From IMG/VR virus record IMGVR_UViG_2615840717_000004, positions 39,604 through 103,603 of that record: 64,000 bases of DNA; one strand, written 5' to 3'. This document shows positions 3-51,505 of this stretch, piece by piece (position 1 is the first letter of the stretch; each line of letters opens with the position of its first letter). The translations under genes and the position numbers were made by a program. The notes under the pieces were generated by a model that did not search any database, was not told where the DNA came from, and was given only the letters and a program-made list of their open reading frames with translations. This DNA is from a virus (Duplodnaviria; Caudoviricetes).

Positions 3-1346
3 GTCGACTTTGTCACCCCCCATGCCGTAGAAACGGACTTTACAGACGCAGAGTTTGATAGAAGCACATTCAAAGTTCTGACAATGCGCAGCGCCACTTT
101 TTTTCGAAGTAAACATCACCGAACTGAGTTTACAGACAATGATTTTGAAGACGTGCTTTTCAAGAATAGTGAACTGACGAAATGTAGTTTTGAAAATGTG
201 AAATTCGCAAAGTGCAACTTGGTGCAGTGCGAAGCTTTCGAAAGCAACTTTAGTGGTTCGGAAGCCGTGAATACAGACTTTGAAGGTTGCAGACTTCACC
301 AAACCACTTGGTACAAAACTGTCTATGATGAGTGTAATTTCGCTAAAGCACGCTTCGGAGCAGCCCAACTCATCAACGCTAAGTTTTATCATTCTATTTT
401 CGATGACGCTCAGTTCGCGAAAGCGACAATAACTGGTGGGCATTTCAAGTACGGCAGAGCCCTTTCTGCAAACTTTCAAGCTGCAACAATCTCTGACTGC
501 GACTTCGTTCAAGTTGACCTCAGAGGTGCTAACTTCACGAAAGCAGAAATCGACAACGTTCACTTTGGTGGTTGTGATCTGAGAGGAGCGAACTTTGTTG
601 GAACTGGTATCTGGGGACCGGAGCAATTGCCAGGAGCAAGGGTTGACGAGACAACGATATTCCAAGCAAGACCTCAAGATAGTTTGAAAGAGGCTCCGTC
701 GAAAGATGAAGTAACAGAGAGCGCCATTTTCTCTGCAGACAATCCAAACGCTCTCGATCTCAGCGAAGTCAGTGCCAGTCAACCACTTAAAACAGACAAA
801 GGAACCCTTGATCACCATCAGGTTATGAGCGTCAACACCCCTGTCTATTTTACCAAGGCAGACGGAACAGACACTCAAATTACTCTTGCTAGTATCGCGA
901 TCGCCATGCGCGGGAAGCAGAATGCTATCCCTGAAATATTTGAGAGAGTGATCAAAGCCGCAGAAAACGGCGAAGACATTCGTTTCAAAGACAAAGAAGA
1001 AGAGTGGCTTGAACTTCTTACGGCTGACTGGATTGCACCTGAAGATAAAGAAGCCTGCTTTGAAGCAATTAGAAAAGCTATGACAGAAGAGCACGCAGCT
1101 CCGTACTTCGGCAGCTTGGAATGGTTGACGCCAGAAAATCTTGAAACAATACGTGAGGGCCTGCTTTTTTGCCAAGAACTTGGAAATGGAAATGTAGTGA
1201 TCGGTGCTTTTAAAGCTGGCGCTAGTGTTTTCTCTTTTGGCATCTTTCCGGTCGGACTTTACCATGTACATAAAATAATGGATGTCCTTACGAACAGGTT
1301 TGCAGCTGCAGATAGACAACGCGACAAAGAGCTGGAAGACAGCTAG
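3..1346 (+). CDS. Pentapeptide-repeat protein with helical C-terminal domain (5' end outside window)
   Basis: A(D/N)F/L pentapeptide repeats (e.g. DLRGANFTKAEI, DLRGANF); the frame is open upstream of ATG 84 to the window edge with further repeats (ETDFTDAEFDRSTF). Confidence 0.85.
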   Translation, partial: VDFVTPHAVETDFTDAEFDRSTFKVLTMRSATFFRSKHHRTEFTDNDFEDVLFKNSELTKCSFENVKFAKCNLVQCEAFESNFSGSEAVNTDFEGCRLHQTTWYKTVYDECNFAKARFGAAQLINAKFYHSIFDDAQFAKATITGGHFKYGRALSANFQAATISDCDFVQVDLRGANFTKAEIDNVHFGGCDLRGANFVGTGIWGPEQLPGARVDETTIFQARPQDSLKEAPSKDEVTESAIFSADNPNALDLSEVSASQPLKTDKGTLDHHQVMSVNTPVYFTKADGTDTQITLASIAIAMRGKQNAIPEIFERVIKAAENGEDIRFKDKEEEWLELLTADWIAPEDKEACFEAIRKAMTEEHAAPYFGSLEWLTPENLETIREGLLFCQELGNGNVVIGAFKAGASVFSFGIFPVGLYHVHKIMDVLTNRFAAADRQRDKELEDS

Positions 1347-2306
1347 ATGACTGCTTTGCCCCCTGCTCCACCGAGACCTTTCCGCTCTTACCTGCCAGGA
1401 CAGCTGCGTGGGTTTGGGTTTGTTTTTGCGGGTAATTTGTGGAGTTTGGGTGTCTATCTGATTTATCAGGGCAGCGCGCTGCGGGACTGGTTTCTGGCTG
1501 GGTTTCTCTGGATTGTTGGGGCGGTTATCGTTTACTGGCTGGCAACGCGGATTGAGCCCGTTTTCAGCCCGCTCAAAGCCCTGCTGGTCACCCTTTTCTT
1601 TCAGGTGCAGATGTTCGCCGCCATCGCCCTCATCCGCGTTAGCCTGGCGGATTTCGAGATTGAGGCCCTCAACCAGCTGAGCATCACCCAAATGGTTCTG
1701 GCCGTCTACATCCTCATGATCCCCATAACCCTCCTCACCGCTTTCATAAGCTGGGTGAGGCAGAGCAACGACTGAATTCTTTTCACTGGCGACAGACTGG
1801 ACACACCTCCACAAACTGAGCGACAGTTGCGCCATTGAAAACACTAGGAGTTCTTGAGCAAATTGATGGTTAAAACTAGTGTGCCCCAAAGCGACCAAAC
1901 CACCATCGAACCACCTCAAGTTCTGAGCAAAACTGCCCTTACAAAGAAGTACGTTGCTGTTATCGCCTTCATCATTGGTGGACGGAGTCTCTGGACACTT
2001 TATCCGAAGCTCTCTGGCCCGCTCACTGCACTTCAGTTGGTTATGATCATCGGCTGCTTGACTGCGATCGGCCTTGGTGCTTGGCTTTGGCCTAAGAAGC
2101 TCAATATCATCAACCTGCTTAGCCTGGTTATTCTGGTGAACGTTGGCTTGGCAGTCGTCGTCATAGCCTTTGGCGTTCCGCTCTTCTTCCTGACTTACTT
2201 TGAGCTCATTGATGAATGGGCCGTTGAACCCGTAACTCTGTATGGTCTGGTGATCACCAGCACTGCTGCCTATATGGTAATCAATATCTTTCGTGCGCCT
2301 TAGCAT
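3..2306 (-). CDS. Antisense shadow ORF, >=768 codons, open to window edge, covering three + strand cargo genes
   Basis: Read codon by codon: no TTA/CTA/TCA in the + frame from 3 to 2306. ATG 2306-2304 overlaps the TGA of 2306..3400 (TGATG), with GGAGGG RBS. Absent from the track, probably because no stop lies in the window. Confidence 0.7.
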   Translation of the reverse strand, partial: MLRRTKDIDYHIGSSAGDHQTIQSYGFNGPFINELKVSQEEERNAKGYDDDCQANVHQNNQAKQVDDIELLRPKPSTKADRSQAADDHNQLKCSERARELRIKCPETPSTNDEGDNSNVLLCKGSFAQNLRWFDGGLVALGHTSFNHQFAQELLVFSMAQLSLSLWRCVQSVASEKNSVVALPHPAYESGEEGYGDHEDVDGQNHLGDAQLVEGLNLEIRQANADEGDGGEHLHLKEKGDQQGFERAENGLNPRCQPVNDNRPNNPEKPSQKPVPQRAALINQIDTQTPQITRKNKPKPTQLSWQVRAERSRWSRGQSSHLAVFQLFVALSICSCKPVRKDIHYFMYMVKSDRKDAKRENTSASFKSTDHYISISKFLAKKQALTYCFKIFWRQPFQAAEVRSCVLFCHSFSNCFKAGFFIFRCNPVSRKKFKPLFFFVFETNVFAVFCGFDHSLKYFRDSILLPAHGDRDTSKSNLSVCSVCLGKIDRGVDAHNLMVIKGSFVCFKWLTGTDFAEIESVWIVCRENGALCYFIFRRSLFQTILRSCLEYRCLVNPCSWQLLRSPDTSSNKVRSSQITTTKVNVVDFCFREVSTSEVNLNEVAVRDCCSLKVCRKGSAVLEMPTSYCRFRELSVIENRMIKLSVDELGCSEACFSEITLIIDSFVPSGLVKSATFKVCIHGFRTTKVAFESFALHQVALCEFHIFKTTFRQFTILEKHVFKIIVCKLSSVMFTSKKSGAAHCQNFECASIKLCVCKVRFYGMGGDKVD
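1347..1775 (+). CDS. Multi-pass membrane protein (cargo)
   Basis: About four hydrophobic segments; starts immediately after upstream stop (TAG ATG). Confidence 0.75.
   Translation: MTALPPAPPRPFRSYLPGQLRGFGFVFAGNLWSLGVYLIYQGSALRDWFLAGFLWIVGAVIVYWLATRIEPVFSPLKALLVTLFFQVQMFAAIALIRVSLADFEIEALNQLSITQMVLAVYILMIPITLLTAFISWVRQSND
1854..2303 (+). CDS. Multi-pass membrane protein (cargo)
   Basis: About four hydrophobic segments; AGGAG RBS upstream. Confidence 0.75.
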   Translation: MSKLMVKTSVPQSDQTTIEPPQVLSKTALTKKYVAVIAFIIGGRSLWTLYPKLSGPLTALQLVMIIGCLTAIGLGAWLWPKKLNIINLLSLVILVNVGLAVVVIAFGVPLFFLTYFELIDEWAVEPVTLYGLVITSTAAYMVINIFRAP

Positions 2307-50732: not shown

Positions 50733-51505
50733 GCTGACCTCTCGCAAAAATGGGAAGACAGAATCAGTCCATGGTCACTAAAAGAAGTCGGTGTTTTCTC
50801 AGTAATTTTGGAATTAGTATTGTAATGCGAAATAGAGATCTGGTCTTGTGTGCAGCAGCTTGCTTTACGGGGGCTTTTATTGGAGCGCTCTGCATTATTG
50901 TCGTGACTGGCGACTTTTATGATGGACCACCTAAGGTTGGGGAAACGAGGGAAGCTCTGATACGCGGTTGGATAGCTGTTGCAATAAATGGAATAGCCGC
51001 ACTCGTTGTAGGAGTTGGTTTGTTGTTTACAGCGCGACAAACACGAAGCGCCAAACTGCAGGCGTTCCAAATGAACCTTCAGGTCATAAACGATGAAATC
51101 AATACTCTTATGATGCTGCGCCCTATCCTTCTTAACATCGGCGTTGCCACCGAAGTTATAAGTAACGCAGCCAACACAGCAAACGCTGCGCAATACTATG
51201 AAGATATAAAAGAGATCAATTTGGACATCTTTAAAACGACTTACAAAATCGGCGACACCGAGAGCAGAACAACAATTGGGGAGATATTTGACGGCATTGG
51301 GGCAATCCAAAGAGGGATAAGGGCAGAGTACCCTCTTGAGACAATACAGTGTTCTGCAAGTAAGGTGTTTCCTCTTGCTAATAAGTATTATGACAATCAT
51401 ATTAGTCGACTGCTTCCAAAACTTGAAGAAAGACAGAGCGACTTGAGAGATCTTATTATTAAGGAGACTAAGCGACTTAGTCGGCACTAGATCTTGCATC
51501 ATCAC
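50729..51505 (-). CDS. Antisense shadow ORF bridging gcrA-like gene to primase
   Basis: GTGA overlap at start, ATGA overlap at end; in register with 50750..51490. Confidence 0.65.
   Translation of the reverse strand: MMMQDLVPTKSLSLLNNKISQVALSFFKFWKQSTNMIVIILISKRKHLTCRTLYCLKRVLCPYPSLDCPNAVKYLPNCCSALGVADFVSRFKDVQIDLFYIFIVLRSVCCVGCVTYNFGGNADVKKDRAQHHKSIDFIVYDLKVHLERLQFGASCLSRCKQQTNSYNECGYSIYCNSYPTAYQSFPRFPNLRWSIIKVASHDNNAERSNKSPRKASCCTQDQISISHYNTNSKITEKTPTSFSDHGLILSSHFCERSA
50750..51490 (+). CDS. Reversed moron: 2-TM, helical protein (true start probably near 50825)
   Basis: Two TM helices, LLFTARQTRSAK. Confidence 0.75.
   Translation: MGRQNQSMVTKRSRCFLSNFGISIVMRNRDLVLCAAACFTGAFIGALCIIVVTGDFYDGPPKVGETREALIRGWIAVAINGIAALVVGVGLLFTARQTRSAKLQAFQMNLQVINDEINTLMMLRPILLNIGVATEVISNAANTANAAQYYEDIKEINLDIFKTTYKIGDTESRTTIGEIFDGIGAIQRGIRAEYPLETIQCSASKVFPLANKYYDNHISRLLPKLEERQSDLRDLIIKETKRLSRH

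What the first reader, a model, noticed from the sequence alone, without database searches (positions are those of the whole stretch)
3..51505. Shadow-ORF system: reversed cargo in phage early operons is bridged by stop-free antisense ORFs coupled at both ends
Seen: four minus-strand ORFs (50729-51505, 48817-49692, 2306-3400, <3-2306; about 1,680 codons in total) lie exactly in register opposite six + strand cargo genes, in two different elements. All seven ORF ends visible in the window form stop/start overlaps with the neighbouring minus-strand ORF (ATGA, GTGA or TGATG), with SD-like sequences. The cargo genes therefore use no TTA, CTA or TCA, although they use other AT-rich codons (ATA, AGA, AGT, ACA). 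The shadow proteins have no motif I recognise. Known: untranslated AT-rich RNA is a Rho substrate, and phage operons rely on translational coupling. Inference: the shadow ORF keeps ribosomes on the early mRNA across the insert, preventing polarity and relaying coupling to replication genes. The cargo could be expressed in the lysogen and silenced by the antisense early transcript on induction. I know of no description of this arrangement, but could not search.
Basis: partly seen in the sequence, partly recalled or inferred. Interest (0 to 1): 0.95.

Follow-up and report, generated by a model that had tools for sequence, protein, structure and literature searches.

The report
Stop-free bridge ORFs across reversed prophage genes
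In two Pseudovibrio prophages, every gene inserted backwards into the early replication operon is crossed by a long stop-free reading frame on the operon strand, joined start-to-stop to its neighbours, and selection keeps this frame open without constraining its product, which suggests that ribosomes must keep translating the early mRNA across such inserts.

Summary
All four minus-strand ORFs exist, in codon register with six + strand genes that have no TTA, CTA or TCA in 1,549 codons. ORF D continues beyond the window to 1,088 codons, and a fifth bridge follows.

All ten junctions in this genome are GTGA, ATGA or TGATG overlaps behind SD-like sequences.

Chance is excluded. About 71 antisense stops are expected in the eight cargo genes and none is seen. 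Five other reversed low-GC genes of the same prophage carry 76. Chromosomal pentapeptide genes carry the normal number.

The + strand is the protein-coding strand, judged by Pfam hits, codon usage, substitution pattern and BLAST. The bridge translations are Cys-rich and unconserved.

Related Pseudovibrio prophages, and one from another genus, have cargo only 25-34% identical or unrelated. They keep the same open, coupled frames, once out of register and once via a 41-codon relay ORF.

Best reading: selection for uninterrupted translation of the early mRNA. Protection from Rho polarity and relay of coupling are inferred, not shown. No expression data could be obtained.

I found no published description. 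Other first-stage notes of this scan raised the same idea on this same genome.

The parts
3..2324 (-). Bridge ORF D. The likely start is the ATG at 2306, a TGATG overlap with the stop of bridge C. An in-frame TTG lies at 2324. The ORF continues left of the window to -942, 1,088 codons in all. It crosses cargo p3, p2 and p1 and their spacers, then a C4 RNA gene, then reads in frame into a 133-codon ORF. It ends ATGA-coupled to a Bro-N/Ant gene.
2306..3400 (-). Bridge ORF C, 364 codons. The GTG start overlaps the TGA of the HTH gene behind AAGGAGG. It crosses cargo p4.
84..1346 (+). Cargo p1, a pentapeptide-repeat protein. The open frame begins at window -195 (513 aa from a TTG). No antisense stop.
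   Evidence: (Pfam PF00805/PF13599, E 1e-21 to 6e-23)
1347..1775 (+). Cargo p2, a 142-aa membrane-like protein, 93-96% identical in three other Pseudovibrio species. pN/pS is 0.10-0.36 in this frame.
1854..2303 (+). Cargo p3, a 149-aa membrane-like protein.
2420..3391 (+). Cargo p4, with two TM segments followed by a C-terminal pentapeptide-repeat domain.
3397..3915 (-). HTH_23 protein, the operon gene directly upstream of bridge C.
3912..4406 (-). cII-like activator of element 1.
48817..49692 (-). Bridge ORF B, 291 codons, with ATGA overlaps to the primase stop and to the DnaB-helicase start.
48874..49683 (+). Cargo p5, with two TM segments at the N-terminus and a helical domain. It has 40%-identical homologues in Pseudovibrio sp. 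Ad46 and P. ascidiaceicola.
50729..51505 (-). Bridge ORF A, 258 codons. GTGATGATG overlaps the stop of the gcrA-like gene, and ATGA overlaps the primase start. Public records annotate it as a hypothetical protein.
50750..51490 (+). Cargo p6, with two TM segments at the N-terminus and a helical domain. Its Ad46 homologue is 77% identical.
47459..48820 (-). DnaB-like helicase, downstream of bridge B.
49689..50747 (-). Primase (zf-CHC2, DUF7146, Toprim_3), lying between bridges A and B.
51502..51942 (-). 146-aa gene with a weak GcrA match, upstream of bridge A. In G009 and G014 its stop overlaps the primase start directly, so the slot is empty there.
35351..36331 (+). Internal control: a reversed low-GC gene in the late region with 16 antisense stops and no bridge. 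The same holds for 12566-13360, 40753-41607, 42285-43616 and 45149-45973.

Best explanation
The minus-strand ORFs are translated spacers, here called bridge ORFs. When a gene sits backwards between translationally coupled genes of the prophage early/replication operon, the operon-strand frame across it is kept free of stops. It also has an SD and a start that overlaps the upstream stop, and a stop that overlaps the downstream start.

Ribosomes therefore never leave the early mRNA while it crosses the insert. The polypeptide made is irrelevant; the act of translation is what is selected.

Likely benefits (inferred):
(i) The C-rich antisense RNA of the insert is not exposed to Rho, so transcription reaches the primase, helicase and antirepressor genes.
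(ii) Termination-reinitiation coupling is passed on to the next gene.
(iii) The transcribing polymerase stays backed by a ribosome while it meets opposing transcription from the cargo.

The cost falls on the cargo gene, which may not use TTA, CTA or TCA, or the equivalent trinucleotides when the bridge is out of register.

Shown here: the anatomy, its statistical excess, its recurrence with unrelated cargo, the coding strand, and the lack of detectable constraint on the bridge product.
Inferred: translation of the bridges and the Rho/coupling purpose.
For: (1) No antisense stop in 2,188 cargo codons of this genome, against about 71 expected.
(2) All ten junctions are 1-4 nt stop/start overlaps behind an SD.
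(3) Controls:
- Five other reversed low-GC genes of the same prophage carry 76 stops in 1,591 codons.
- Three chromosomal pentapeptide genes carry 2/116, 7/262 and 12/314.
- Among 185 tightly flanked reversed blocks in the genome, the only one of real length with none is cargo p5.
(4) Recurrence in G010, G002, G006, G003 and G016 (all Pseudovibrio) and G069 (another genus). Cargo there is 25-34% identical or unrelated, from at least 10 BLAST-unrelated families, and the frames are again open and coupled.
(5) In G016 the bridge crosses a 216-codon gene out of register. By chance this happens in at most 1 of 724 genes. This rules out a codon-preference artefact.
(6) In G006 three antisense stops are bypassed by TTGA, then a 41-codon ORF, then ATGA, then the bridge.
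(7) The coding strand is the cargo strand. Pfam pentapeptide hits on several cargo genes range from E 3e-9 to 2e-40. Codon log-odds are positive for cargo. pN/pS is 0.10-0.38 for cargo against about 0.9 for the bridge frame. BLAST scores in the cargo frame against the bridge frame were 196 vs 47 bits and 150 vs 38 bits in two example pairs. In the Ad46 pair there are 33 cargo-synonymous changes against 13 bridge-synonymous ones.
(8) Bridge translations contain 3.5-6.2% Cys and have no family hits, apart from one sub-threshold Pfam match for bridge B (PF04117, E 0.0023, 18.3 bits against a 27-bit cut-off).
(9) Operon-sense RNA over the cargo has C/G of 1.0-1.22, against 0.74-0.83 in the replication genes. 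The host encodes Rho.
(10) Element 1 carries a C4 antisense RNA upstream of an ant-type gene. From my own knowledge (Biere, Citron and Schuster 1992, recalled and not read here), this module in phage P1 works through translation-dependent escape from Rho termination.
Against: - There is no transcript, ribosome-footprint or protein evidence.
- The conditional dN/dS of the bridge frame in the small p2 family is 0.25-0.59. The counts are tiny (3-6 events) and confounded by constraint on the cargo, so weak constraint on some bridge products cannot be excluded.
- In G003 the bridge is fused in frame to what I read by eye as a KilA-N-like domain (not checked against a family library). In G000, bridge D runs in frame into a 133-codon ORF. 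Parts of some bridges may therefore be N-terminal extensions of real proteins.
- The phenomenon is documented only in Pseudovibrio and one neighbouring genus. In more distant primase loci, reversed genes are unbridged but have 500-1900 nt flanks.
- Promoter and terminator scans gave no signal above chance, so the cargo's own expression signals are unknown.
Confidence: 0.62

Rival explanations
1. True dual coding. The bridge ORFs encode functional proteins, so these are antisense overlapping gene pairs of the kind reported for phage Fc02 gene 10 / olg1.
For: - The ORFs have good SDs and starts and are long.
- Public annotation already lists bridge A and its Ad46 homologue as proteins.
- In Fc02 an early-operon gene antisense to a lysogen-expressed exclusion gene was reported to be active (PMC9936078).
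- Conditional dN/dS of the bridge frame is below 1 in the p2 family.
Against: - Bridge sequences are about 15% identical where the cargo is about 30% identical.
- BLAST similarity in the bridge frame is only the echo of the cargo frame.
- pN/pS is about 0.9.
- Cys is 3.5-6.2%, and there are no Pfam or PHROG hits apart from one sub-threshold Pfam match for bridge B (PF04117, E 0.0023, below its cut-off).
- Bridges occur over at least 10 unrelated cargo families, and once out of register. No common product can therefore exist.
Confidence: 0.1
2. The purpose is RNA-level management of the sense/antisense pair rather than anti-polarity. Ribosomes on the early mRNA would prevent duplex formation with cargo mRNA and RNase III or RNase E cleavage. 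Alternatively, the translated antisense transcript would serve to shut the cargo off at induction.
For: - The anatomy fits this reading equally well.
- The cargo is packed so tightly that its transcript must overlap operon genes.
- No terminators were detected between the convergent units.
Against: - This does not by itself explain the exact stop/start overlaps at both ends and the relay mini-ORFs. Those point to hand-over of ribosomes to the next gene.
- There is no evidence that the cargo is transcribed in the lysogen.
Confidence: 0.13
3. Chance or compositional artefact. These would be ordinary shadow ORFs produced by codon bias, with the + ORFs or the minus ORFs being mis-called.
For: In-register shadow ORFs of at least 130 aa are very common in this genome, with 1,961 pairs. 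TTA, CTA and TCA are rare codons here.
Against: - log10 P is about -16 to -35 for this genome alone.
- The cargo genes are the lowest-GC stop-free genes in the genome.
- The spacers are open too.
- There is an out-of-register case.
- The pattern recurs with diverged and unrelated cargo.
- Neighbouring reversed genes behave normally.
Confidence: 0.02

Closest known systems
Translation-dependent escape from Rho termination in phage immunity operons: P1/P7 immI (c4 RNA, icd, ant) and P4 (nested kil/eta ORFs). Cited from my own knowledge (Biere et al. 1992; Forti et al. 1999); neither paper was read here.
   Same: An upstream ORF has to be translated for transcription to reach the downstream gene, and that ORF is coupled to the downstream gene. 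Element 1 itself carries a C4 RNA (Rfam RF01695, 55 bits) followed by a 133-codon ORF coupled to a Bro-N/Ant gene.
   Different: Those ORFs are short, lie in ordinary sense-only DNA, and encode (icd, kil) active proteins. Here the ORFs are 258-1,088 codons long and lie antisense to functional genes. Their product is unconstrained, and they impose a codon restriction on the opposite gene.
Antisense overlapping genes in temperate-phage regulatory regions: Pseudomonas phage Fc02 gene 10 opposite olg1/olg2 (PMC9936078)
   Same: An early lytic-operon ORF lies antisense to genes thought to be expressed from the prophage.
   Different: In Fc02 both products are reported to be active exclusion proteins. 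No role for translation itself, no end-coupling and no stop avoidance was proposed.
Long antisense 'shadow' ORFs and embedded overlapping genes (E. coli, Pseudomonas; e.g. PMC8850804, bioRxiv 10.1101/724807). Seen only as search hits by title and abstract; not read.
   Same: Long in-register antisense ORFs that arise because TTA, CTA and TCA are rare.
   Different: Those are embedded within one gene and have no coupled ends. They are debated either as chance products or as protein-coding. Here the ORFs span whole genes and spacers, are chained to operon genes, and are conserved as open frames while their sequence drifts.
Leader peptides and upstream ORFs whose translation controls Rho access (tna, mgtA and others). 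General knowledge; the review PMC12360218 was listed but not read.
   Same: The act of translation, not the peptide, governs Rho-dependent termination.
   Different: Those are regulatory switches of tens of codons at the 5' end of an operon. The bridges appear to be constitutive, kilobase-long and internal to the operon.

Membership tests
Functional antisense overlapping gene pair (both strands encode selected proteins) | Purifying selection on the amino-acid sequence of both frames | tested here: not met
   Cargo frame: pN/pS 0.10-0.38. Bridge frame: about 0.9. Bridge-frame BLAST scores are a fraction of cargo-frame scores. In the Ad46 pair, 33 cargo-synonymous changes against 13 bridge-synonymous. 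The conditional estimate in the small p2 family is ambiguous.
Functional antisense overlapping gene pair (both strands encode selected proteins) | Both products detectably expressed | not testable with these tools
Translation-dependent anti-polarity ORF (P1 icd / P4 eta type) | The ORF lies in the same transcript upstream of the protected gene and is translationally coupled to it | tested here: met
   All ten junctions in G000 are 1-4 nt stop/start overlaps with an SD. The same holds in G069, G016 and G006. Membership of one transcript is inferred from the absence of gaps.
Translation-dependent anti-polarity ORF (P1 icd / P4 eta type) | Blocking its translation causes Rho-dependent termination before the downstream gene | not testable with these tools
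   Circumstantial only: C>G-rich operon-sense RNA over the cargo and Rho present in the host.
P1-type immI module (c4 - icd - ant) | C4 antisense RNA gene | tested here: met
   RF01695, 55.2 bits against a gathering score of 45, at L029 13684-13766 on the minus strand, which is window -491..-409.
P1-type immI module (c4 - icd - ant) | A small ORF directly downstream of c4, coupled to an antirepressor gene | tested here: met
   ATG with AAGGAG at window -541, a 133-codon ORF, and ATGA coupling to a Bro-N gene that matches PHROG anti-repressor Ant families at E 7e-49. Homology to Icd itself was not tested.
Pentapeptide-repeat proteins (cargo p1, p4 and relatives) | Match to Pfam PF00805/PF13599 above the curated cut-off | tested here: met
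   p1 at 72.6-81 bits, p4 at 49.4 bits, G010_540 at 136.7 bits, G069_385 at 109.5 bits.
Moron (autonomous insert with its own promoter and terminator) | Own promoter upstream and terminator downstream of the inserted gene | tested here: inconclusive
   Consensus scans found no more sites than shuffled controls. One weak + strand site lies at 48814-48843, before p5. The inserts fill the gaps to within 3-57 nt, so any signals must lie inside the flanking operon genes.

The most novel reading that the evidence does not exclude
Bridge ORFs are a previously unrecognised class of genetic element: kilobase-long reading frames selected only to be translated. They would let temperate phages carry backward-facing (probably lysogen-expressed) cargo inside tightly coupled early operons. 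The evolutionary signature they leave is a ban on three codons in the opposite gene.

In element 1, ribosomes arriving through the 1,088-codon bridge would in addition run in frame over the C4-controlled ribosome-binding site. That would override antisense-RNA immunity and switch on the antirepressor at induction.
Probability: 0.45. Interest if true: 0.88.

Novelty: new variant of a known kind. Interest (0 to 1): 0.8.

Why it matters
If ribosome occupancy alone is what is selected, these are clear natural examples of long ORFs that function without a functional product. Three consequences follow.

- It would show that transcription-translation coupling shapes phage genome architecture strongly enough to dictate synonymous codon choice in a gene on the other strand.
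- It gives a simple sequence signature for finding operon-internal reversed cargo, which often includes candidate defence or exclusion genes: a reversed gene lacking TTA, CTA and TCA, together with coupled ends.
- It warns annotators. Public records already list at least one bridge as a hypothetical protein, and in one strain both strands are listed.

The system offers a clean experiment, in which one cargo-synonymous base change introduces a bridge stop. That experiment addresses how much Rho polarity and ribosome hand-over matter inside phage operons.

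Tried and rejected
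- DNA searches of the window ends against E. coli genomes and the phage collection found nothing. A protein search with the primase against the phage collection found only a distant Salmonella hit.
- My first codon log-odds score was flawed, because pseudo-counts for the reverse complements of stop codons inflated it. I replaced it.
- PADLOC gave no defence-system hit for eight cargo proteins.
- The Atlas search gave only sub-threshold leads (0.80-0.84) to retron Ec48 effector, DUF4760 and AbiC clusters.
- The genome-contig scan with the HTH alignment returned only two loci that I already held. It did name the genus.
- The survey of 20 more distant primase loci was uninformative. Those genomes have higher GC, chance shadows over co-oriented genes are frequent there, and the unbridged reversed genes have long flanks.
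- Promoter and terminator scans were no better than shuffles.
I therefore had no expression data and no DNA for the Ad46 and P. ascidiaceicola homologues.
Terminal Ala residues follow from the GC-ATGA / GC-GTGA junction sequence, and ordinary genes of these operons end the same way.
- Literature searches found no description of bridge ORFs over reversed cargo. The library does not hold most subscription journals.

Full report
**Setting.** The window is contig C39:69175-133174 of a 5.85-Mb genome. Close relatives are named Pseudovibrio denitrificans and Pseudovibrio sp. Alg231-02, so the host is a Pseudovibrio, a marine alphaproteobacterium.

Two prophage-like elements lie side by side.
- Element 1 has its early operon on the minus strand, running leftwards from about 4844 and out of the window. 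In order it holds a cII-like gene (3912-4406), an HTH_23 gene (3397-3915), the region of interest, a Bro-N/Ant gene, a primase, a D5-type helicase and a small terminase.
- Element 2 has an integrase at 7826-9121, late genes, a CI-type repressor at 54665-55432 and a minus-strand early operon. That operon holds a cII-like gene (53548-54066), a RuvC-like gene (52641-53183), a 146-aa gene with a weak GcrA match (51502-51942), a primase (49689-50747) and a DnaB helicase (47459-48820).

The six + ORFs contain no TTA, CTA or TCA in 1,549 codons. They do use ATA (24), AGA (24), AGT (26), ACA (32) and GTA (13).

Read on the operon strand, every junction is a stop/start overlap behind an SD-like sequence: GTGA, TGATG, GTGATGATG and three ATGA.

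With the neighbouring DNA the picture grows. ORF D is 1,088 codons long and ends ATGA-coupled to the Bro-N/Ant gene. After that gene a fifth bridge starts with GTGA behind AAGGAGG and crosses two more reversed 273-aa genes. It ends ATGA-coupled to an 85-codon Cys-rich ORF, which in turn overlaps the primase start. All ten junctions in this genome are coupled.

**Is it more than chance?** Short in-register shadow ORFs are ordinary here. There are 1,961 antisense pairs of at least 130 aa, because TTA+CTA+TCA make up only 18.7 per 1000 codons. Complete spanning, however, is rare.
- Only about 1.5% of genes of at least 240 codons lack these codons. In genes with GC below 0.48 their rate is 35-51 per 1000.
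- Given their Leu and Ser content, the eight cargo genes of this genome should carry about 71 antisense stops with low-GC usage, or 34 with genome-wide usage. They carry none; log10 P is about -34.6 or -15.9.
- Of 1,292 same-strand gene runs of at least 200 codons, eight have none, and three of these are the cargo blocks of 1,127, 546 and 269 codons. The other five are low-scoring miscalls or GC-rich genes whose shadow has no coupled start.
- Five other reversed, low-GC genes of the same prophage carry 76 antisense stops in 1,591 codons.
- The three chromosomal pentapeptide-repeat genes of this genome carry 2/116, 7/262 and 12/314.

**Which strand codes?** The + strand does.
- p1 and p4 match Pfam pentapeptide families (E 1e-21 and 3e-13). 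No minus-strand ORF matches Pfam or PHROGs above threshold; bridge B gives one sub-threshold Pfam match (PF04117, E 0.0023, 18.3 bits against a 27-bit cut-off).
- A codon log-odds score that ignores the stop-related codons is positive for every cargo ORF (0.03-0.14 per codon). Real low-GC genes score 0.13 +/- 0.05, and fewer than 1% fall below zero.
- The bridge translations contain 3.5-6.2% Cys and read like antisense noise. The cargo translations show TM helices and helical domains.
- For slot A the public databases hold the bridge (257 aa) as a protein. They also hold both a bridge homologue (68% identical, ungapped) and a p6 homologue (77% identical) from Pseudovibrio sp. Ad46. Those two Ad46 proteins fit a single DNA in register at all 221 shared codons. 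The inferred single changes are cargo-synonymous/bridge-nonsynonymous 33 times and the reverse 13 times. p6 is therefore the constrained frame.

**Relatives.** The flanking operon genes are conserved at 70-96% in other Pseudovibrio species, while the slots differ.
- In G009 and G014 slot A is empty, and the 146-aa gene overlaps the primase start directly. Slot B there holds forward genes with normal antisense stop counts.
- In G010, G002 and G006 the element-1 slots hold reversed genes that are only 25-34% identical to p4 and p1. One close pair is 75% identical, and the small p2 gene is 90-96% identical.
- These genes again have no antisense stop: 369, 140 and 540 codons in G010; 362, 140, 539, 295 and 281 codons in G002; 150 and 141 codons in G006. 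They are spanned by ORFs of 361-909 codons with the same junction types.
- At this divergence synonymous sites are saturated (pS about 0.8), so an open frame cannot simply have been inherited.
- In the unsaturated comparisons the cargo frame has pN/pS 0.10-0.38 and the bridge frame about 0.9.
- For the 75% pair, 5.1 cargo-synonymous changes that create a bridge stop were expected among 80 observed synonymous differences. None occurred.
- A conditional (OLGenie-style) estimate gives strong constraint on cargo (0.03-0.23). For the bridge frame it gives 1.72 and 0.56 in the 75% pair and 0.25-0.59 in the p2 family. The p2-family values rest on 3-6 events and are confounded by cargo constraint, so I treat them as inconclusive.

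**Three cases that sharpen the reading.**
- G016 carries a 370-codon open operon-strand frame (357 codons from its first start). It crosses a reversed 117-codon gene in register and a reversed 216-codon gene out of register. In this genome only 1 and 0 of 724 genes of that size have a stop-free frame in the two out-of-register antisense phases. The bridge then hands on through 25- and 39-codon ORFs to the primase ATG.
- G006 looked like an exception, with three antisense stops near the operon-proximal end. In fact the HTH stop overlaps a TTG (TTGA) that opens a 41-codon ORF in another frame, and the stop of that ORF overlaps the ATG of the bridge (ATGA).
- G069, from another genus of the family, has a reversed 385-aa pentapeptide gene (109.5 bits). 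It is spanned by an ORF with ATGA at both ends, the second being the primase start.

In G003 the bridge over a 230-aa reversed gene continues in frame into a C-terminus that I read by eye as KilA-N-like.

By BLAST the bridged cargo genes fall into at least ten unrelated families.

**Interpretation.** What is conserved is an open, ribosome-loadable path through the insert, in whatever frame and by whatever relay. It is not a protein. This is the signature expected if the early mRNA must be translated without interruption.

Why that should matter is inferred.
- The operon-sense RNA over the cargo is the antisense of a gene and is C-rich relative to G. C/G is 1.0-1.22, and 29-50% of 78-nt windows reach at least 1.3. 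In the replication genes C/G is 0.74-0.83 and 1-7% of windows reach that level. From established knowledge of Rho, this is the kind of RNA it loads on when no ribosomes cover it. The host has Rho.
- The exact overlaps suggest that downstream genes depend on reinitiating ribosomes.
- Element 1 carries a C4 antisense RNA (RF01695, 55 bits) inside the tail of bridge D. It lies 50 nt before an SD-ATG that opens a 133-codon ORF coupled to the Ant-type gene.
- From my own knowledge, in phage P1 C4 blocks translation of icd, and transcription then stops at a Rho-dependent site before ant. In P4, translation of the nested kil/eta ORFs suppresses immunity-specific termination. I could not read those papers here.
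- These elements therefore belong to a lineage in which translation-dependent read-through is an established principle. I did not test whether they lack N- or Q-type antitermination.

**Limits.**
- No expression data could be obtained.
- The DNA of the Ad46 and P. ascidiaceicola homologues could not be fetched.
- Promoter and terminator scans were no better than shuffles, so the cargo's own signals, and the idea that cargo is on in the lysogen and off after induction, remain untested.
- Outside Pseudovibrio I have one clean case. In more distant primase loci the reversed genes have flanks of 500-1900 nt and are not bridged. That is compatible with a second solution, separate transcription units, but it shows the bridge is not universal.

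**Known or new?** Searches of the open literature found antisense overlapping genes, shadow ORFs and Rho biology. None described operon-strand ORFs kept open across reversed phage cargo.

The nearest case is phage Fc02. There an early-operon gene lies antisense to lysogen-expressed exclusion genes, and both are reported to be active (PMC9936078).

The principle that translation shields RNA from Rho is old. The new points are its embodiment in kilobase-long frames with an unconstrained product antisense to functional genes, and the measurable codon ban on the opposite gene. I rate this a new variant of a known kind.

Other first-stage notes of this scan describe the same idea on this same genome. 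They are unchecked notes and not independent evidence.

**Verdict.** Selection for open, coupled bridge frames is very likely (about 0.9). Continuous translation serving downstream expression is the best explanation (0.62). Rho polarity specifically is plausible but undemonstrated.

Noticed in passing
L029 13684-13766 minus (window -491..-409); ORF from window -541 to -942: A C4 antisense RNA (RF01695, 55 bits) lies in an alphaproteobacterial prophage. It is followed by an SD-ATG that opens a 133-codon ORF ATGA-coupled to a Bro-N/Ant gene, a layout like P1 immI. Bridge D reads in frame through the RNA gene into this ORF.
   Followed up: partly
window 50729-51502 minus; proteins P0007, P0019, P0020: Public protein databases list bridge A as a hypothetical protein. 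For Pseudovibrio sp. Ad46 they hold proteins from both strands of the same DNA: PsAD46_03337 on the bridge strand and a 221-aa p6 homologue.
   Followed up: yes
window 48874-49683, 50750-51490; L029 10820-11641, 11690-12511; L027 2465-3352; L024 3528-4520: Several cargo proteins share a build of two N-terminal TM helices (with a recurring W-I/V-x-A-x-S/G-G-W/x-A-A motif) followed by a variable helical domain. The nearest named Atlas clusters are retron Ec48 effector, DUF4760 and AbiC, all below the 0.9 reliability mark. PADLOC gave no hit.
   Followed up: partly
window 84-1346, 2420-3391; L025 8069-9178, 9742-11364; L026 7051-8022, 9178-10332; L062 10028-11185: Pentapeptide-repeat proteins, some of them membrane-anchored, are the recurrent reversed cargo of these early operons in two genera. 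Their role in a prophage is unknown.
   Followed up: no
whole genome G000: In-register antisense ORF pairs of at least 130 aa on both strands number 1,961. Some shadows exceed 800 codons over highly biased chromosomal genes, which is a general hazard for annotation of this genus.
   Followed up: partly
L023 6855-8516 plus (G003): The 553-codon bridge over a reversed 230-aa gene continues in frame into a C-terminal region that I read by eye as a KilA-N-like domain. The bridge may therefore double as an N-terminal extension, or an internal start is used. The domain assignment was not checked against a family library.
   Followed up: no
L029 about 10516-10754 minus (window about -3659..-3421): An 85-codon ORF with Cys/His motifs (a possible zinc ribbon, judged by eye) sits between bridge E and the primase. 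It is coupled at both ends, by ATGA and by GTGATG.
   Followed up: no
window 2306-2342 and other bridge 3' ends: Bridge products often end in Ala or Ala-Ala (RAAA, GAFA, ERSA, RGAA). This follows from the GC-ATGA / GC-GTGA junction sequence, and ordinary genes of the operon end the same way. I do not read it as a dedicated degron.
   Followed up: partly
window 5356-6480 minus: A 374-aa low-GC (0.45) ORF between the two elements has no Pfam or PHROG hit and a normal antisense stop count (20).
   Followed up: no
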